Below, piece by piece: positions 273 to 29,230 of a stretch of DNA of 64,000 nt (position 1 is the stretch's first letter; each line of letters opens with the position of its first letter). This stretch comes from Candidatus Berkelbacteria bacterium. GTDB taxonomy: Bacteria; Patescibacteriota; UBA1384; 2-12-FULL-50-11. The stretch lies in assembly GCA_016432625.1 (NCBI GenBank), contig CP066697.1, positions 671,951 to 735,950 of the forward strand. Direction: 5' to 3'. A program made the position numbers and the translations under genes. The notes under the pieces were generated by a model that did no database searches, was not told the DNA's origin, and saw nothing but the letters and a program-made list of their open reading frames with translations.

Positions 273-1052
273 TTATACTTTCTGATTACTCTGGCGTTTT
301 TGCGCCGCTTCCCAAGCAAGCTCAAAGACGAGCTTCATGTTGTTGGCTATTTCCGGGCTTTGAACTAGGACACCGAGGTAACTACCTTTTTTAAAACTAT
401 AAAACTTCACTCCCCAGTCTGGATGAATCTGCATTGAGACAGTTATAGGGAACTGATGCCGCGGCAGGAAGACAGCTTCGCGAAGCTCCTTTTCGTTGAC
501 TGAATCAGGCATCGGACCGTTCTTGTGAGTGTAGATAACTCGCGTCTTGACACCCATCTTAACGCGATACTCTACGGCGGTTTTTCGCCGGCTAGGAAAC
601 TCTTCTTCGATGATATCGATCGGAATGATCGCAAGCTGCTCTGTTCGATCCTTCAAACTTTCTTGCCCCAGCTTATCCAGAGTTTCCAGACCTTCAGGCC
701 CCTCAAAGTAGCGCACGATCGGTTTACCTTTCTTGGTGTTATAGACGGCCATGAGTTGACTCATCAGGTCATCAAGCTGTGCTCGGCGACCGTCAATCTC
801 CCGTTTCTGCTCCTCGAGGATATTGCCTAGTTCAGTGGGGCTCTCGGCGATAAATTTAGTCTTTTTGTCATGCTCAATTGAGCTGACCAGCCCCAAACCC
901 ATAAGATGCTCTAAGATGACGTAGGTGGTTGCCCGGTTCACGCCCGATTTCTTGGCGATGTTTTGGACGGTATCCTCACCGAGCTCGAGCGTTGCGAGGT
1001 AGACCTTGGCCTCTTTCTCGCTAAGGCCGAGTTTGATTAACGCCTGTTCCAT
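273..1052 (-). CDS. TrmB-family transcriptional regulator (N-terminal winged-HTH)
   Basis: 259-aa ORF with N-terminus 'LSEKEAKVYLATLELGEDTVQNIAKKSGVNRATTYVILEHL', typical of the TrmB HTH domain. Stop TAA at 273-275. It lies directly downstream of the pilus operon. Confidence 0.65.
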   Translation of the reverse strand: MEQALIKLGLSEKEAKVYLATLELGEDTVQNIAKKSGVNRATTYVILEHLMGLGLVSSIEHDKKTKFIAESPTELGNILEEQKREIDGRRAQLDDLMSQLMAVYNTKKGKPIVRYFEGPEGLETLDKLGQESLKDRTEQLAIIPIDIIEEEFPSRRKTAVEYRVKMGVKTRVIYTHKNGPMPDSVNEKELREAVFLPRHQFPITVSMQIHPDWGVKFYSFKKGSYLGVLVQSPEIANNMKLVFELAWEAAQKRQSNQKV

Positions 1053-23342: not shown

Positions 23343-25034
23343 ATGTCGGCGAAGTTCGTCTTCGTTACCGGCGGAGTCCTCTCTGGGGTGGGTAAAGGAA
23401 TTGTCGCCGCCTCTCTTGCTAACACTCTGAAAAATCGCGGCTACGAAGTTTTCCTGCAAAAATTTGACCCGTATTTAAACGTTGACGCCGGCACTCTGAA
23501 CCCCGCTGAGCACGGCGAGTGTTTCGTGACCGCTGATGGCGCCGAAACAGATCTAGATTTGGGCCACTACGAGCGTTTTCTTGATGTGGAGCTAACGCGC
23601 GACTCCTCTGTGATGAGCGGCGCAATTTACCGCAGTGTTATCGAGAAGGAACGCCAGGGCAAGTACCTGGGCAAAACTATCCAGGTCATCCCGCACGTCA
23701 CTAACGAGATCAAAGAGCGGCTTTACAGAGCGGCCGAGCAATCCGAGGCCGATATCCTGGTCATAGAAATCGGTGGCACTGTCGGTGACATTGAAGGCAG
23801 CCACTTCATTGAAGTAGCGCGTCAAGTCGCGTGGGAGAGAGGACGCAATAATGTCTTGTTCGTCCATGTCGGCTACTTACCATATCTAGACTCTTCGCAG
23901 GAGACAAAAACCAAGCCGATTCAAAACTCGATTATAGATTTAAGAGCGCGCGGTATTCAGCCAGATATCGTTTTCTGTCGTGCTGATCACCCAATCGACA
24001 GGCAACAGTTAAAAAAGATCGCACTTTTTGGCGGACTGCCCGAGGAGGCGGTTGTCGGCCTCGAGACGATTGATACTGTTTACGCCGTGCCGCTAGTGAT
24101 CGCTGCGCAAAAAGTTGACCGTTTAGTCCTGAATTATTTGAAGCTAAAGATCCCTCGACAGCGCAGCAACGACTGGGAGGCGCTTGTACGTCGCATTCGT
24201 CGGCGGCGCAAAACAACGCTTAAAATCGGCCTGGTCGGCAAGTATATGTCGATGAGCGATACCTACTTCTCGGTAATTGAGGCACTGAAGGCGGCCGGCT
24301 GGCAGTCGACCCACGGACTTTCTGTTGTGTTGATAGATAGCGAGCGAGTCGAGCAAGTCGGAACAACGCTTTTGGCGGACCTAGACGGAATCTGCGTCCC
24401 TGGTGGCTTTGGCAAGCGAGGGATCAAGGGGATGCTACTCGCGATCCAATACGCTCGGGAAAACCAGATTCCTTTCTTGGGTCTGTGTTTGGGAATGCAA
24501 CTCGCAACAATTGAATACGCTCGCAACGTCCTAGGGCTCGAGGAAGCTAATTCGACCGAATTTGATGGCAACGCTCGCGAGCCAGTAATCACGACGATGT
24601 CAGATCAAGTTAAAAAACTGGCTCACCTTGAGTATGGCGGCTCGATGAGGCTCGGCAATTACCCCTGTCGCTTGGCTCAGGGGACCAAGGCTCGGGAGCT
24701 GTACGGTAAGGCCTCAATTCAGGAACGACACCGTCACCGCTACGAGTTTAACAACGCCTACCGACCAGTTCTTGAGGAGGGGGGAGAGTTTATTGTAGCA
24801 GGTGTGAATAATGCGCTGGATCTTGTCGAGCTCATAGAGCTGAAAGACCATCCTTATTTCCTGGCCTGTCAGTTTCACCCAGAATTCCGGAGCCGCCCGT
24901 TGCGCCCACACCCGCTTTTTGTCGGTTTTGTTGAGGCTGCGGGAAGGTTCCACAAAGATAACGAACCCACCCAAAGATTGCCGTTACACTATCGGCAAGT
25001 ACCCGGTCGCACGCGAAAACGAAGTCAGGGCTGA
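23343..25034 (+). CDS. pyrG: CTP synthase
   Basis: N-terminus 'KFVFVTGGVLSGVGKGIVAASL'. C-terminal glutamine amidotransferase 'GLCLGMQLATIEYARNVLG'. 563 aa. Confidence 0.95.
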   Translation: MSAKFVFVTGGVLSGVGKGIVAASLANTLKNRGYEVFLQKFDPYLNVDAGTLNPAEHGECFVTADGAETDLDLGHYERFLDVELTRDSSVMSGAIYRSVIEKERQGKYLGKTIQVIPHVTNEIKERLYRAAEQSEADILVIEIGGTVGDIEGSHFIEVARQVAWERGRNNVLFVHVGYLPYLDSSQETKTKPIQNSIIDLRARGIQPDIVFCRADHPIDRQQLKKIALFGGLPEEAVVGLETIDTVYAVPLVIAAQKVDRLVLNYLKLKIPRQRSNDWEALVRRIRRRRKTTLKIGLVGKYMSMSDTYFSVIEALKAAGWQSTHGLSVVLIDSERVEQVGTTLLADLDGICVPGGFGKRGIKGMLLAIQYARENQIPFLGLCLGMQLATIEYARNVLGLEEANSTEFDGNAREPVITTMSDQVKKLAHLEYGGSMRLGNYPCRLAQGTKARELYGKASIQERHRHRYEFNNAYRPVLEEGGEFIVAGVNNALDLVELIELKDHPYFLACQFHPEFRSRPLRPHPLFVGFVEAAGRFHKDNEPTQRLPLHYRQVPGRTRKRSQG

Positions 25035-26884
25035 GGGGGTGGCGGTTCAACAGGTGGCGGACTCTCAGGTTGTTTTGTACCAACCAGGAATTTCGCCGCC
25101 CAGGGTTTGTAAACCGACTTGAATGTTTGTTTATTAATCACCTGGCCGTTACGGGTCACAGTGTAAGCCACCACGGCTGTTGCCCCCTCATGAGCCTTTT
25201 CGGTCTGCTTCACTTCGCCGACCATCAGAGTATCCGTCTCGGTGCGGACTTCCGGTGGTGGTGGCAAGACGTTAGTAACGATCGGCGTCGTAAGGCTTGA
25301 AACACGTCCATCCTTGGTTCCCCAGAGTTCAAAGATAACTTTGCTGCCAATAACTTGGCCTTGAACTAAAAGATAGTTGCCGGTGTCGTTAAGGAATTTG
25401 AAATCGGGCTTTGGCAGGTAAATTGTCGCATCCAGTCCAACCGGCGGCTCGTAATAAGACACTCGATATGAGTGGTTTTGGCGCTCCGTAACTTTTAGGC
25501 CAGCGTTCAGAACGGCTCGAAACAGAGTTGTTGAGACTTGGCAGAGGCCTCCACCGAATTCTGGGGTAGTCTTGTTCTCTTTGATCACCAGTTCCGGCAA
25601 GAAGCCGGTCGTACCGTCAACCGCCCCGAGCGTCTTGACCGTCGAGAACTCGTCGCCTGGTTTGACTAGCGTACTCTGCAATAGCCGCACGCCGTTGGCG
25701 ATATTGGCTCGGCGGTTAGCTGGTGAGCCGGCAAAGCTAGTCTCGCCAAGTCCGACGATCTCCTTAATCCCTAGCGAATCGAGGTTATTCTCAGTAATTA
25801 GTGGCTTTTGAGCTTTGAAGGTCAAACTAGCCTCGGTCGCGGTCGGATCGTTTAGCACTGCCAGAACAGTTTTGGCACTTACGTCGATATCCACTACTCG
25901 TCCCTCCGAGGCGCCCTCAAGAATTACCAATTTACCTTCTTTTATGCCGAGTTTTGGATCCTTGGCTGGTTGGTCGATCGATTCAGCCGACAGCTCCTGA
26001 AGATAGGACCGCGTTTTATTGTCGGTGAAACTGGCGCGCAAGACCTTCTTGCCAGAAAGTGAGCCTGGCTGTTGAACGCCGGTAAAGTCAACGAGTCGGT
26101 TAACGTCTCCTTTGTTTAAATCCTTGCGGCCGCCTTCCCAAACTAAGGTTATTTTCTTTGTTGCCAAACTCTCAGCAGCGGTTTTGAGCGCAACTTCGTC
26201 GTCAATAACGATACTAGGCTCAGCCTTTTGGCGAACCAGCTCGATTGGCTCAGTGCTGCCACTCGACCAACGATCGAGAATTTGGCCAAGGAGAGTTTCT
26301 TGGTTAATCGTCTCGCCTGATTTGGCGTGAGTGATGACTAACTTATCCCCCTCGAACTCAGCGCTGGCGTTCACGGCTGGTTCGTCGATCGACTCAGCGA
26401 TGCCGGAAAGGGTGGTCTTTAGGTAAGTCTCGTCGTACTCGGCCTGAACATAATGGTGGCGGCTGTAGAACGGCGCCGTAACCTGCTCGAGTAGACTTTG
26501 AGTCCAATCGGCCTGTCGTCCGACCTTGAAAATTGTCTCGGCGGTGCCTTTAGTGTCGGCCGACCAGTTCGCCTCTTTAGCTGAAACCGAATAGGTTTTG
26601 CCGGCGTAATTAAGATTTAGGGGTTGCGAGAGGGAAGATGAGACGACGGTATTTAAACGCTCCTCAACTGCTGACAGTTTCAGGCCGCTGTACTGTTGCG
26701 TCCCGACGAATACGTTAGGGTAAACCCGTCCCAAGAATATTAGACTGTAAGCCAGATACAGCAACGCCAACAGCGCTACGACTACTAGGCTTGCTACCGC
26801 GCTTCGCTTGGCTTTAGACCCTGAACGAAGCAGCTTGTCGAGCCACCTCAAGGAGAAGGGAACGGTAGTTGTTGTCGTGCTCAT
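25025..26884 (-). CDS. VanW-family protein (YoaR-like) with N-terminal TM, G5-like segment and Pro-rich C-terminus
   Basis: VanW core 'EFGGGLCQVSTTLFRAVLNAGLKVTERQNHSYRVSYYEPPVGLDATIY'. Its 3' end overlaps convergent pyrG by 10 nt. Confidence 0.8.
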   Translation of the reverse strand: MSTTTTTVPFSLRWLDKLLRSGSKAKRSAVASLVVVALLALLYLAYSLIFLGRVYPNVFVGTQQYSGLKLSAVEERLNTVVSSSLSQPLNLNYAGKTYSVSAKEANWSADTKGTAETIFKVGRQADWTQSLLEQVTAPFYSRHHYVQAEYDETYLKTTLSGIAESIDEPAVNASAEFEGDKLVITHAKSGETINQETLLGQILDRWSSGSTEPIELVRQKAEPSIVIDDEVALKTAAESLATKKITLVWEGGRKDLNKGDVNRLVDFTGVQQPGSLSGKKVLRASFTDNKTRSYLQELSAESIDQPAKDPKLGIKEGKLVILEGASEGRVVDIDVSAKTVLAVLNDPTATEASLTFKAQKPLITENNLDSLGIKEIVGLGETSFAGSPANRRANIANGVRLLQSTLVKPGDEFSTVKTLGAVDGTTGFLPELVIKENKTTPEFGGGLCQVSTTLFRAVLNAGLKVTERQNHSYRVSYYEPPVGLDATIYLPKPDFKFLNDTGNYLLVQGQVIGSKVIFELWGTKDGRVSSLTTPIVTNVLPPPPEVRTETDTLMVGEVKQTEKAHEGATAVVAYTVTRNGQVINKQTFKSVYKPWAAKFLVGTKQPESPPPVEPPPPQP

Positions 26885-26899
26885 GATACGTTATTGACT

Positions 26900-27124
26900 C
26901 TACTCGGCGCCCAAGATCTCTTCAAGCAGCGCCCGAGCAACATTCTCGCGACGCTTGCGCTCATTTTTTAGTAAGAAAAACTCGGCCGTTAGGACGTCAC
27001 CCTCTTTGCAGCTGGCGGGCATCATCGTCCGCGGGACGATCGCCTCGCCTTTTGGGCTTGTTAGTACCGCGTGGCCGTTCTCGAAGCGGTCGACAACCCA
27101 GTGGAACGGTTGTCGTTCAACCAT
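26900..27124 (-). CDS. DUF3006-family small protein
   Basis: 'VVDRFENGHAVLTSPKGEAIVPRTMMPASCKEGDVL' follows the DUF3006 pattern (xxDRFEGxxAVLE...P...KEGDVL). Confidence 0.55.
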   Translation of the reverse strand: MVERQPFHWVVDRFENGHAVLTSPKGEAIVPRTMMPASCKEGDVLTAEFFLLKNERKRRENVARALLEEILGAE

Positions 27125-27127
27125 AGC

Positions 27128-27229
27128 CTCAACGTATTACCAAGGCGATAATTAAAATCGCCACGATATTCGCAATCTTGATCAGCGGCTGCGCCTCAGA
27201 AAGCTCTCGATTTGATAAATCGCTCGCTA
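27128..27229 (-). other. In-frame duplicated remnant of the hppA 3' end (33 codons + TGA) immediately after the hppA stop
   Basis: Minus-strand translation is '[33 protein letters not shown]'. The real HppA C-terminus is '[21 protein letters not shown]'. The nucleotide sequences have diverged (about 60% identity). Confidence 0.5.
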
Positions 27230-29230
27230 TCATCGGATTACTAGTGTGATGATCAAAATTGCCACAATGTTGGCAATTTTTATCATGGGATTTATAGCTG
27301 GGCCAGCAGTGTCTTTGTACGGATCGCCGACGGTGTCTCCAGTGACCGAGGCTTTATGGGCTTCAGAACCCTTGCCACCGTGATTACCTTCTTCGATGTA
27401 CTTCTTGGCGTTATCCCAAGCCGCGCCTCCGGTAGTCATCGACAGAGCCACAAACAGCCCTGTGACGATCGAGCCAATCAACAGACCACCTAGCGCCGCT
27501 GGACCTAAGAGCCAGCCGACAAGAATCGGCACGACTACTGGCAGGAGCGCCGGGACAATCATCTCTCGTAAGGCAGCACCAGTAACTATTGAGACGGCGC
27601 GGGCGTAGTCGGGCTTAATCTTGCCTTCGAGAATACCGCGACGCTCCTTGAACTGACGGCGTACTTCGCTCACGACGGCGCTAGCAGCGCGGCCGACGGC
27701 TTCCATCGACATCGCGGCAAAGAGATACGGCATCAGACCGCCGATAAAGAGTCCAGCGATGACGTACGGGTCGGATAGGCTGTAAGCGATATCGACACCC
27801 TTAGCGGCAATTTCTTGCGTGTAAGAGGCGAAGAGTACCAGGGCCGCCAAGCCGGCCGAAGCGATCGCGTAACCTTTCGTAACGGCTTTAGTAGTGTTGC
27901 CAACAGCGTCAAGCGCATCAGTGACAGTGCGGACTTCGCTCGGTAGTTCTGCCATTTCGGCAATCCCGCCAGCGTTATCAGTAATCGGGCCGAAGGCGTC
28001 AATGGCGACAATCAAACCCGTCAGGGAAAGCATCGAGAAAGCCGCTACGGCAACGCCGTAGAGACCAGCCAGCTCAAAAGCACCCAGCGCGCCTGCCGCA
28101 ATAACCAGCACTGGCCACATTGTCGAGCGCATTGAGAGCGCTAACCCGGAAATAATGTTGGTGGCGTGACCGGTTTCCGAGGCTTTGGCAATTGACCGAA
28201 CGGGTCGGTACTTAGTTGAGGTATAGTACTCGGTTATAAGCATCATCGCGGCCGTAACGCCGATACCGATAGCGGCGGCGCCGAAGAGCTTGGCAACGTT
28301 AAATTCATCGCTCATCAGCCAGCTCGTCAGTGGCCAGATGCCAGCGAGCGCTAAAACGATGGCGGCGATCAAGCCTTTGTACATCGCGCCCATGATGTTG
28401 CCACTCCTTGATAAGCGAACAAACCAGCTACCAATAATCGAAGCGACTATCGATAGGGCGCCTAAGGCTAGGGGGTAGAGGATAACGTTGTCATTACCTT
28501 CGAAGAGGATGCTGCCCAGCAACATCGCGCTCACCGCTGTAACGACGTAAGTTTCAAATAAATCAGCAGCCATGCCGGCGCAGTCTCCGACGTTATCACC
28601 GACGTTATCGGCAATTACCGCTGGGTTACGGGGGTCATCCTCCGGAATGCCGGCTTCAACTTTACCGACTAAATCCGCTCCGACATCGGCGGCTTTGGTA
28701 TAAATGCCGCCACCGAGCCTGGCGAAGATCGAGATTAATGAGCCACCGAAAGCCAAGCCAACGAGCGCCGAGACGTCTCGAGTCAGCCAATAGAAAACCG
28801 TTGTGCCAAGTAGCCCTAAGCCAACTACCATCAGCCCGGTAACTGCGCCACCGCGGAAAGCTAGATTCAGGGCAGGGACAAGGCCGGTTTTAGCTGCTTC
28901 AGCGGTCCGGATGTTGGCACGAACAGAGACGTTCATGCCGATATACCCCGACATCGCAGACAGCACGGCGCCGAGAACAAAGCCTCCGGCAATCGTCCAG
29001 TTGAGTAAGAAGCCAAGCAGTAAGAAGGCGAGCAAAGCCACGACGGCAACCGTTCGGTACTGGCGGTTCAGATATGCTTTGGCGCCCTGCTGGATGGCCG
29101 AGGCGATCTCTTGCATTCGCGCATCGCCGTTAGCCCGGCTATTGATCCAACGCCCTAATAGTAACGCGTAGATTACAGCCAACGCCCCCGCTCCAGTCGC
29201 CCCGTAAAGAATGTATTGCTCAGTAGTCAT
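27230..29230 (-). CDS. hppA: Membrane-bound proton/sodium-translocating pyrophosphatase (V-PPase)
   Basis: 666 aa. Motifs '[19 protein letters not shown]', '[21 protein letters not shown]' and '[19 protein letters not shown]'. An AAGGAGAGG RBS is present. Confidence 0.95.

What the first reader, a model, noticed from the sequence alone, without database searches (positions are those of the whole stretch)
27128..27232. In-frame diverged duplicate of the last about 20 codons of hppA directly after its stop codon
After the hppA TGA (27230-27232) the same frame continues for 33 codons. These end in '[19 protein letters not shown]', compared with the genuine C-terminus '[19 protein letters not shown]'. 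The nucleotide sequence has diverged to about 60% identity, so this is not a recent assembly duplication. It could be a relic of a tandem duplication or recombination with a paralog. Stop-codon read-through would append a second copy of the terminal TM helix. The DUF3006 gene begins 3 nt after the remnant's stop.
Basis: seen in the sequence. Interest (0 to 1): 0.5.

Follow-up and report, generated by a model that had tools for sequence, protein, structure and literature searches.

The report
Small gene copied from pump's tail
Directly after the membrane pyrophosphatase gene of an uncultivated Berkelbacteria bacterium lies a 34-codon gene made from a duplicated copy of the pump's last membrane helix; it is conserved in several related lineages and looks like a translated mini-protein, not the decaying, read-through remnant first suspected.

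Summary
The duplicate is real, on the minus strand. The last 19 residues of HppA (27233..27289) recur at 27132..27188, 17/19 identical. An independent assembly has the same sequence.

Several details in the finding are wrong:
- The copy is not in the hppA frame. It lies in the -1 frame, inside a 34-codon ORF (27129..27233) whose ATG overlaps the hppA stop (ATGA).
- The next in-frame codon after the stop is TAG, so read-through cannot reach the copy.
- Nucleotide identity is 73%, not 60%.

The same ORF occurs in at least three other lineages, and a fifth carries a truncated version. It has the same MIA(S/N) start. At the two other loci with positional data it also overlaps the upstream gene's stop. 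Synonymous sites are near saturation across these lineages. Most relatives lack it, including the closest one (97% HppA identity).

In two genomes, parent and copy differ at 26 nucleotides, 22 of them third codon positions, and at only 2 amino acids. Neutral decay and gene conversion both fail to explain this.

My best reading is an unannotated, translationally coupled single-helix membrane microprotein. It arose by partial duplication of helix 16 and probably partners with the pump. Translation and function remain untested.

The parts
27230..29230 (-). hppA, membrane-bound pyrophosphatase, 666 aa. The parent gene.
   Evidence: ORF list. Pfam PF03030, E 2e-269, covering residues 17-660. 100% match to a protein named 'sodium-translocating pyrophosphatase [Candidatus Berkelbacteria bacterium]'.
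27230..27289 (-). Parent repeat: the last 19 codons of hppA ([19 protein letters not shown]) plus TGA. This is the C-terminal half of transmembrane helix 16 and includes the gate lysine K16.50.
   Evidence: The alignment to T. maritima mPPase 4av3 puts the K of 'IKI' on the K of 'LIKIM', which is K707 = 16.50 in the table of PMC6882861.
27227..27232 (-). Tandem in-frame stops TGA-TAG at the end of hppA.
   Evidence: Frame translations. L085 has the same TGA-TAG, and L083 has TAA-TGA.
27129..27233 (-). Unannotated small ORF: 34 codons plus stop, [34 protein letters not shown]. Its ATG overlaps the hppA stop (ATGA), and it lies in the -1 frame relative to hppA.
   Evidence: Not called by the gene finders on record. 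Homologs: L085, P0121, P0123. A truncated form is in L083.
27189..27230 (-). Linker and N-terminal tail of the small ORF (codons 2-15). This is new sequence, not derived from helix 16.
   Evidence: Window versus L085: 75% nucleotide identity. Changes are spread 6/4/2 over codon positions and 8 of 16 residues differ, so there is no amino-acid-level constraint. MIA(S/N) is invariant in four lineages.
27202..27228 (-). Small bipartite hairpin in the linker RNA: AGC-GAG-CGAUUU-AUC-AAAUCG-AGA-GCU.
   Evidence: Predicted in the window and, with one G:C to A:U compensatory pair, in L085. The z-score is significant only for L085. Weak evidence; role unknown.
27129..27188 (-). Copied repeat: [19 protein letters not shown] plus TGA. 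This is the predicted membrane helix of the small protein.
   Evidence: 44/60 nt and 17/19 aa identical to the parent repeat. The 16 differences are distributed 3/0/13 over codon positions. Mean Kyte-Doolittle hydropathy of the best 15 residues is 2.7.
27125..27128 (-). 4-nt spacer (GGCT) between the small ORF's stop and the DUF3006 ATG. This is the same spacing that relatives without the copy have between the hppA stop and DUF3006.
26900..27124 (-). DUF3006 gene (74 aa), the next gene in the same tightly packed transcription unit.
   Evidence: Pfam PF11213, E 1.4e-12. Syntenic downstream of hppA at all 11 clade loci read as DNA, and uncalled at one (L089). No terminator-like site lies between it and hppA.

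Best explanation
The 'remnant' is a small gene. An old partial tandem duplication copied the 3' end of hppA, that is, the C-terminal half of transmembrane helix 16 from about residue 16.47 to the stop. This created a 34-codon ORF in the -1 frame.

How it is probably expressed (inferred): the ORF's AUG overlaps the hppA stop (AUGA). Ribosomes terminating on hppA would therefore restart on it (translational coupling). They would restart again 4 nt after its stop on DUF3006.

What it encodes: a 33-34 residue protein with a short, variable, hydrophilic N-terminal tail and one membrane helix. The helix is nearly identical to the C-terminal half of HppA helix 16 and includes the equivalent of the ion-gate lysine K16.50.

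Shown: the anatomy, the conservation across lineages, and a codon-position pattern indicating purifying selection on the helix.

Inferred: that it is translated by coupling; that it inserts in the membrane; and that, like KdpF, CydX or MgtR, it binds the pump encoded just upstream. My favoured mechanism is a helix-16 mimic that uses the packing surface of helix 16 to modulate assembly, stability or gating of HppA. It is accessory, because many relatives have lost it, probably by deletion between the two direct repeats.
For: 1. Anatomy. ATGA overlap, -1 frame, 34 codons, and a 4-nt gap to DUF3006. No terminator-like site between hppA and DUF3006.

2. A homologous ORF in other lineages.
- L085 (HppA 86% identical) has the same CGATGATAGCGA junction and encodes [34 protein letters not shown].
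- P0121 is a 34-aa protein called on a JGI contig. It has a 4-nt overlap with the upstream gene and a 4-nt gap to a 74-aa DUF3006.
- P0123 is 33 aa, [33 protein letters not shown], and is found on 5 contigs.
- L083 carries a truncated 25-codon version that still starts on the hppA stop (TAATG) and still ends 4 nt before DUF3006.

3. Time scale. Third-position identity between hppA genes of these lineages is 0.44-0.53, so neutral sites are near saturation.

4. Selection.
- Window, parent versus copy: 16 nt differences distributed 3/0/13 over codon positions, 2 amino-acid changes.
- L085, parent versus copy: 10 differences distributed 1/0/9, no amino-acid change.
- In simulations of random substitution, none of 20,000 runs gave so few amino-acid changes. 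If only half the differences are random, P is 0.007 and 4.5e-4.
- Copy versus copy (window against L085): identity 82/94/59% at codon positions 1/2/3. The whole hppA gene shows 85/92/51%.
- Third positions differ at 13 of 19 codons (window) and 9 of 17 (L085) between parent and copy in the same genome. That rules out recent homogenisation by gene conversion.

5. In L085 the small ORF is intact although 108 nt now separate it from DUF3006. So it is not kept only as a bridge to DUF3006.

6. The helix part is strongly hydrophobic. It aligns with helix 16 of solved mPPases.
Against: - Patchy distribution. Of 11 clade lineages read at DNA level, only 2 have the intact ORF and 1 the truncated form. 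The closest relative (L082, 97% HppA identity) lacks it.
- The N-terminal linker shows no amino-acid-level constraint between the window and L085. It is quite different in P0123.
- No Shine-Dalgarno-like sequence precedes the ATG.
- Gene callers missed the ORF in the window and in L085.
- No expression, proteomic or interaction data exist.
- DNA was available for only two intact copies, so the selection test rests on about 110 nt in total.
- The claimed interaction with HppA rests on analogy and on the origin of the sequence. It has not been tested.
Confidence: 0.6

Rival explanations
1. Non-functional relic. A tandem duplication, or a replacement of the hppA 3' end by recombination with another hppA allele, left the old tail behind. 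It looks protein-like only because it is young, or because gene conversion from the parent keeps refreshing it.
For: - The ORF is absent from most relatives, including the closest one.
- A truncated version exists in L083.
- The linker is not constrained at the amino-acid level.
- In L085, parent and copy share a 20-nt identical run (AAGATTGTGAATATTGTCGC), and in each genome the copy carries that genome's own helix-16 variants (A/V, S, I/V). Both hint at some gene conversion.
Against: - The junction and linker are shared by the window, L085 and P0121, and the MIAS start by P0123. That implies one origin older than lineages whose synonymous sites are near saturation. A neutral remnant of that age should be unrecognisable.
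- Gene conversion acts on all codon positions alike. It cannot give 22 of 26 parent-versus-copy differences at third positions and none at second positions.
- Third positions are fully diverged between parent and copy within each genome, so no recent conversion covers the tract.
- Replacement by a foreign allele in each lineage separately would not recreate the same linker.
Confidence: 0.2
2. The ORF is kept open only as a translational relay. After the duplication separated hppA from DUF3006, ribosomes had to translate through the insert so that DUF3006 stayed coupled to hppA. The peptide itself has no function.
For: - Relatives without the copy have the hppA stop 4-7 nt from the DUF3006 ATG, with no obvious ribosome-binding site.
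- The window, P0121 and even the truncated L083 ORF run exactly from the hppA stop to 4 nt before DUF3006.
Against: - A relay needs only an open frame, not a conserved amino-acid sequence. The helix part shows strong amino-acid-level constraint.
- In L085 the ORF is intact although it no longer abuts DUF3006.
Confidence: 0.1
3. Alternative C-terminus of HppA. A programmed -1 ribosomal frameshift near the end of hppA fuses the linker and the second helix to the pump, giving a 17-helix isoform.
For: - The copy is in the -1 frame.
- The -1 frame is open for about 19 codons upstream of the ATG in the window and in L085.
- A small hairpin lies just after the stop.
- mPPases with 15-17 helices are described (PMC6882861).
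Against: - No canonical X XXY YYZ heptamer occurs in frame in the last codons of hppA, in either the window or L085.
- The A5 run in the window is not conserved in L085.
- The hairpin is weak (window z-score +0.98).
- An ATG that overlaps the stop (TAATG in L083) is found at every locus where the junction could be examined, and all five products start with Met. That points to independent initiation.
- A shift upstream of the stop would scramble helix 16 itself.
Confidence: 0.05
4. Assembly artefact: a chimeric join or collapsed repeat.
For: The closest relative lacks the copy.
Against: - An independent Logan assembly is identical through both repeats.
- The two repeats are only 73% identical, so they cannot be confused by an assembler.
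- Homologous cassettes occur in unrelated samples from ENA, JGI and NCBI.
Confidence: 0.01

Closest known systems
Small membrane proteins encoded next to the pump or oxidase they bind: KdpF (29 aa, KdpABC), CydX (37 aa, downstream of cydAB), MgtR (30 aa, MgtC/MgtA), AcrZ (49 aa, AcrB). Reviewed in PMC12648545.
   Same: Size (33-34 aa), a single hydrophobic helix, location at the 3' side of the pump gene in the same transcription unit, routinely missed by gene callers, and patchy phylogenetic distribution.
   Different: - None of those is described as a paralog of a helix of its own partner. This one is a near-copy of helix 16 of the pump.
- No small partner of a membrane pyrophosphatase appears in the literature searched.
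- Binding has not been shown here.
MicroProteins in the plant and animal sense: small single-domain proteins derived from a larger protein, which interfere with or modulate it (from my own knowledge).
   Same: A small protein that originated by partial duplication of the larger protein. Its sequence matches an interaction surface of the parent.
   Different: The known cases are soluble dimerisation domains of transcription factors in eukaryotes. This one is a membrane helix in a bacterium with a reduced genome.
Duplicated 3' gene ends at integration sites of prophages and genomic islands (attL/attR) (from my own knowledge).
   Same: A direct repeat of a gene's 3' end, with the upstream copy completing the gene.
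   Different: Only about 41 nt separate the repeats. There is no integrase or mobile DNA. The repeats share no identical core longer than about 5 nt. The downstream copy is under coding selection.
Translationally coupled overlapping genes (ATGA / TAATG stop-start overlaps) (from my own knowledge).
   Same: The overlap is ATGA in the window and L085 and TAATG in L083.
   Different: This describes the likely mode of expression, not a gene family. Coupling has not been measured here.

Membership tests
Membrane-bound pyrophosphatase (Pfam PF03030), for the parent gene | Full-length match to the H_PPase profile | tested here: met
   E 2e-269, residues 17-660 against profile positions 2-645 of 645.
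Membrane-bound pyrophosphatase (Pfam PF03030), for the small ORF | Significant match to the family profile | tested here: not met
   No Pfam hit at E 0.01. The ORF is homologous only to the last 19 residues (tblastn E 2.5e-4 within the window). It is a fragment-derived paralog, not a pyrophosphatase.
   TGA is followed in frame by TAG. The copy is in the -1 frame.
Programmed -1 ribosomal frameshift | Conserved slippery heptamer X XXY YYZ in the 0 frame upstream of the overlap | tested here: not met
   None in the last codons of hppA in the window or in L085.
Programmed -1 ribosomal frameshift | Stable downstream stimulatory structure | tested here: inconclusive
   A small hairpin at 27202..27228 is conserved in L085 with one compensatory pair. 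It is weak (window z +0.98, L085 z -2.26).
Bacterial small membrane protein partnering with an adjacent pump (KdpF/CydX/MgtR type) | Fewer than 50 residues with one predicted transmembrane helix | tested here: met
   33-34 aa. Best 15-residue hydropathy is 2.7-3.1 in all four intact members. The helix is homologous to helix 16 of solved mPPases.
Bacterial small membrane protein partnering with an adjacent pump (KdpF/CydX/MgtR type) | Encoded in the same transcription unit as the partner | tested here: met
   4-nt overlap with hppA and a 4-nt gap to the next gene. No terminator-like site between them. P0121 has the same layout.
Bacterial small membrane protein partnering with an adjacent pump (KdpF/CydX/MgtR type) | ORF conserved across lineages with a coding-type substitution pattern | tested here: met
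   Four intact members. Differences are overwhelmingly synonymous in the helix. Caveats: only two members with DNA, and the linker is unconstrained.
Bacterial small membrane protein partnering with an adjacent pump (KdpF/CydX/MgtR type) | Demonstrated translation | not testable with these tools
   No ribosome profiling or proteomics is available.
Bacterial small membrane protein partnering with an adjacent pump (KdpF/CydX/MgtR type) | Physical interaction with the pump and an effect on it | not testable with these tools
No biochemistry.
Integration-site (att) duplication of a gene's 3' end | Mobile element or integrase between the repeats, and an identical core in both repeats | tested here: not met
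   About 41 nt between the repeats. The longest identical run in the window is about 5 nt.

The most novel reading that the evidence does not exclude
The peptide is a helix-16 mimic that physically associates with the membrane pyrophosphatase, as a regulatory or assembly subunit. That would be the first accessory subunit known for this pump family. It was created by duplicating one of the pump's own inner-ring helices, and it co-evolves with that helix: in the two genomes where both sequences are known, the copy carries that genome's own helix-16 variants.
Probability: 0.3. Interest if true: 0.7.

Novelty: new variant of a known kind. Interest (0 to 1): 0.5.

Why it matters
Membrane pyrophosphatases are regarded as single-polypeptide homodimeric pumps, with no accessory subunits reported in the literature I could search. 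A conserved microprotein that copies the gate-bearing helix 16 and sits on the pump's own stop codon would give a natural probe of how helix 16 packs and gates. It would also be a clear bacterial case of a small membrane protein born by partial duplication of its likely partner, and another example of a real gene that standard annotation misses. On the practical side, the finding corrects a tempting misreading: this is neither read-through nor a pseudogene remnant. Its weight is limited because it occurs in only a few lineages of uncultivated Berkelbacteria and is dispensable in close relatives.

Tried and rejected
- **Read-through.** Rejected on frame and the TAG codon.
- **Assembly artefact.** Rejected by an identical independent assembly and by homologous cassettes in other samples.
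- **Second hppA in the window.** None found. The rest of the genome was not available.
- **GTDB genome scan with HppA.** The best weak hits (L022, L007) are signal peptides of unrelated genes.
- **Metagenome scan with a DUF3006 alignment.** It gave two loci, one a duplicate (L092 = L083) and one (L093) with no copy.
- **Search with the last 212 residues of HppA** to find the partner of P0121. The partial protein was not among the 120 listed.
- **DNA for P0121.** Not retrievable because the sample file is too large. There were no look-ups left for P0123.
- **Viral-contig scan for the junction.** No hits. A pattern scan over the fetched loci failed because my pattern was off by one base.
- **Rfam.** No RNA family in 26800..27600.
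- **Slippery heptamer.** None.
- **Integration-site duplication.** Rejected, because there is no element and no identical core.
- **Tests on L082.** I asked whether L082's single 3' end is a parent/copy chimera, as deletion between the repeats would predict. By hand count on the sequences, the best breakpoint gives 11 mismatches, against 15 for all-parent and 14 for all-copy. This is suggestive but not significant, because synonymous sites are near saturation. I also asked whether the 41-nt linker derives from the 5' end of DUF3006, as a simple tandem duplication would predict. I saw no recognisable similarity.
Full report
**What is in the sequence**

Everything lies on the minus strand.
- hppA occupies 27230..29230 (666 aa, Pfam H_PPase E 2e-269). 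It ends in ...[19 protein letters not shown], with TGA at 27232..27230.
- A second [19 protein letters not shown] followed by TGA lies at 27188..27129. Seventeen of 19 residues and 44 of 60 nucleotides are identical. That is 73%, not the roughly 60% stated.
- tblastn of HppA against the whole window finds this copy at E 2.5e-4 and no other hppA-like sequence.
- The copy is not in the hppA frame. The codon following TGA in frame is TAG. The copy lies in the -1 frame, inside an ORF at 27129..27233 (34 codons, [34 protein letters not shown]). Its ATG (27233..27231) overlaps the hppA stop as ATGA. Read-through therefore cannot append the helix.
- The DUF3006 gene (26900..27124, PF11213) starts 4 nt after the small ORF's stop.
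- A Logan assembly of run SRR12113397 is identical over 211 bases spanning the repeats. With repeats only 73% identical, an assembly artefact is excluded.

**Whose genome, and which helix**

- The HppA protein is 100% identical to one labelled Candidatus Berkelbacteria bacterium, on a 768,791-base contig.
- Aligned to the solved T. maritima enzyme, the repeated segment is the C-terminal half of transmembrane helix 16.
- The K of 'IKI' corresponds to K707, that is K16.50, a conserved residue listed in the helix table of PMC6882861. From my own knowledge, this lysine belongs to the ion gate and helix 16 belongs to the inner ring of six helices.

**Relatives**

- Eighty hppA loci from GTDB genomes (68% identity or less) show nothing comparable. 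The best downstream score is 42 against 77 for the window, and the top cases are signal peptides of unrelated genes.
- Within the Berkelbacteria-like clade (HppA 75-97% identical) I read 11 distinct lineages at DNA level.
  - The closest, L082 (97%), has no copy. Its hppA stop is followed after 4 nt by the DUF3006 ATG.
  - L086, L087, L088, L089, L093, L094/95 and L096 also lack it.
  - L085 (86%, an ENA assembly) has the same junction, CGATGATAGCGA. Its 34-codon ORF encodes [34 protein letters not shown].
  - L083/L084 (86%; the identical locus recovered from a JGI assembly and a Logan assembly) has a 25-codon version, MSIGSIVASARTFHESESIIALVIR. It still starts on the hppA stop (TAATG) and still ends 4 nt before DUF3006.
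- An exhaustive HMMER search with the 34-residue product against 1.84 billion representative proteins found one real homolog, P0121 ([34 protein letters not shown], 34 aa, E 2e-5).
  - Its contig's gene table shows a 4-nt overlap with the upstream gene, a 4-nt gap to a 74-aa DUF3006, and a 15-nt gap to the next gene. This is the window's layout.
  - No DNA could be fetched. The identity of the upstream partial gene as hppA is inferred from this synteny.
- A profile search added P0123 ([33 protein letters not shown], 33 aa, on five contigs from NCBI, JGI and ENA). Its linker resembles that of the truncated L083 form.
- So at least four lineages carry an intact ORF and one a truncated ORF. They sit in different parts of a rough HppA tree.

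**Is it decaying?**

Third-codon-position identity between hppA genes of these lineages is 0.44-0.53. Even the window against L082 gives 0.52. Neutral sites are therefore near saturation. Against that background:
- Parent versus copy in the window: 16 differences distributed 3/0/13 over codon positions, and two amino-acid changes.
- Parent versus copy in L085: 10 differences distributed 1/0/9, and no amino-acid change.
- Copy versus copy (window against L085): 11 differences distributed 3/1/7, and three changes in 17 residues. This is the same profile as the real hppA tails.
- Simulated random substitution never gave so few amino-acid changes in 20,000 trials for either parent-copy pair. If only half the differences are allowed to be random, P is 0.007 and 4.5e-4.

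Gene conversion cannot produce this pattern. It acts on all codon positions alike. In addition, third positions differ between parent and copy at 13 of 19 codons (window) and 9 of 17 (L085), so no recent conversion covers the tract. I conclude that the helix-coding part has been evolving as translated sequence under purifying selection.

The linker behaves differently. Between the window and L085 it is 75% identical, and the changes fall 6/4/2 over codon positions. Eight of 16 residues differ. In P0123 the linker is different again. Only MIA(S/N) is invariant.

The linker can form a small bipartite hairpin (27202..27228). L085 retains it with one compensatory pair. This is weak evidence, and no Rfam family matches.

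**Origin**

In the window, L083 and P0121, the 4-nt junction between the copy's stop and DUF3006 matches the hppA-DUF3006 junction of single-copy relatives. Positionally, then, the copy is the original tail. The parent tail plus about 41 nt of linker is the added unit, with a period of 101 nt, which explains the frame offset.

One ancient partial duplication, followed by repeated loss through deletion between the direct repeats, is the simplest history. By hand count, L082's single tail fits a parent/copy chimera slightly better than either repeat alone (11 mismatches against 15 and 14). This is not significant.

There is no mobile DNA between the repeats and no identical core, so this is not an integration scar.

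**How it most likely works**

- hppA, the small ORF, DUF3006 and a VanW-domain gene are packed with overlaps or gaps of 4-15 nt. No terminator-like site lies between hppA and DUF3006. No Shine-Dalgarno-like motif precedes the small ORF.
- The stop-start overlap (ATGA in the window and L085; TAATG in L083) points to termination-reinitiation coupling. This is inferred.
- The product would be a hydrophilic tail of about 16 residues followed by a strongly hydrophobic helix of 17-18 residues.
- Other small membrane proteins encoded beside pumps bind the neighbouring pump (KdpF, CydX, MgtR, AcrZ; PMC12648545). By that analogy, and because this one copies an inner-ring, gate-bearing helix of HppA, I favour a helix-16 mimic that binds HppA and modulates its assembly, stability or gating.
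- That last step is untested.
- The literature I could search links no small protein to membrane pyrophosphatases.

**Rivals**

- A neutral relic kept similar by conversion is contradicted by the codon-position pattern and by the age of the cassette. The patchy distribution and the unconstrained linker keep it alive at about 0.2.
- A mere relay ORF for coupling DUF3006 would not need a conserved amino-acid sequence. It also does not fit L085, where 108 nt now separate the ORF from DUF3006.
- A -1 frameshift that creates a 17-helix HppA lacks a slippery site. The start overlaps the stop at every locus where the junction could be examined, and all five products begin with Met.
- An artefact is excluded.

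**Unexplained**

- In each genome with DNA, the copy carries that genome's own helix-16 variants. The window has A at position 4 in both repeats. L085 has V, S and I in both. Short gene-conversion tracts, co-evolution or chance could each account for three conservative positions.
- The reason for the nucleotide-level conservation of the linker is also open.

**Verdict**

The best-supported reading is an unannotated, conserved small membrane-protein gene born from helix 16 of the adjacent pump. It belongs to a known kind (small membrane proteins beside pumps), with an unusual origin and a partner family not previously associated with one. Interest is moderate. The evidence for selection is good but rests on few sequences. 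The gene is confined to a few lineages of uncultivated bacteria and is dispensable in close relatives.

Noticed in passing
window 25025..29230 (-); L082, L083, L086, L087, L088, L094, L096: hppA, DUF3006 and a VanW/PG_binding_4/G5 gene form a conserved, tightly packed block in this clade. In single-copy relatives the DUF3006 ATG lies only 4-7 nt after the hppA stop, with no obvious ribosome-binding site. This suggests that translation of DUF3006 is coupled to the pump gene. A functional link between DUF3006 and membrane pyrophosphatase is not something I know to be described.
   Followed up: partly
window 27202..27228 (-); L085 5007..5035: A small bipartite hairpin lies in the linker right after the hppA stop. 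L085 keeps it with one compensatory G:C to A:U pair and one wobble pair. The linker is 75% identical between lineages whose synonymous sites are near saturation, yet it shows no codon-type pattern. This hints at a constraint at the RNA level.
   Followed up: partly
window 27230..29230 versus L082 3001..5001: The HppA proteins are 97% identical, but third codon positions are only 52% identical. Amino-acid conservation of this pump in Berkelbacteria is therefore extreme relative to neutral divergence.
   Followed up: partly
L085 5109..5215: In L085 about 108 nt separate the small ORF from DUF3006. This stretch contains a repeated AAACTCTAA motif and a further short ORF (MDQSSSMKFDLEGGYLEFRICNGI) that overlaps the DUF3006 start.
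   Followed up: no
L093 about 500..560: Another relative has an unrelated 22-codon ORF (MNRPAVRNHNDCQANTAINDAA) filling the 60-nt gap between hppA and DUF3006. It starts 5 nt after the hppA stop and overlaps the DUF3006 start. The hppA-DUF3006 gap therefore seems to be bridged repeatedly by short ORFs.
   Followed up: no
window 27227..27232 (-); L085; L083: All three cassette-bearing loci end hppA with two in-frame stops (TGA-TAG, TGA-TAG, TAA-TGA). The single-copy relatives examined do not.
   Followed up: no
window 27249..27276 (-): A weak sigma-70-like promoter match (TTGCCA-16-GATCAT, 9 of 12) lies inside the helix-16 coding region, just upstream of the small ORF. It is probably a chance match.
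   Followed up: no
window 27129..27289 (-); L085 4950..5108: In both genomes with DNA, the copy carries that genome's own helix-16 amino-acid variants, although parent and copy are fully diverged at synonymous sites. L085 also has a 20-nt identical run between parent and copy. Short-tract gene conversion, co-evolution or chance could not be told apart.
   Followed up: partly
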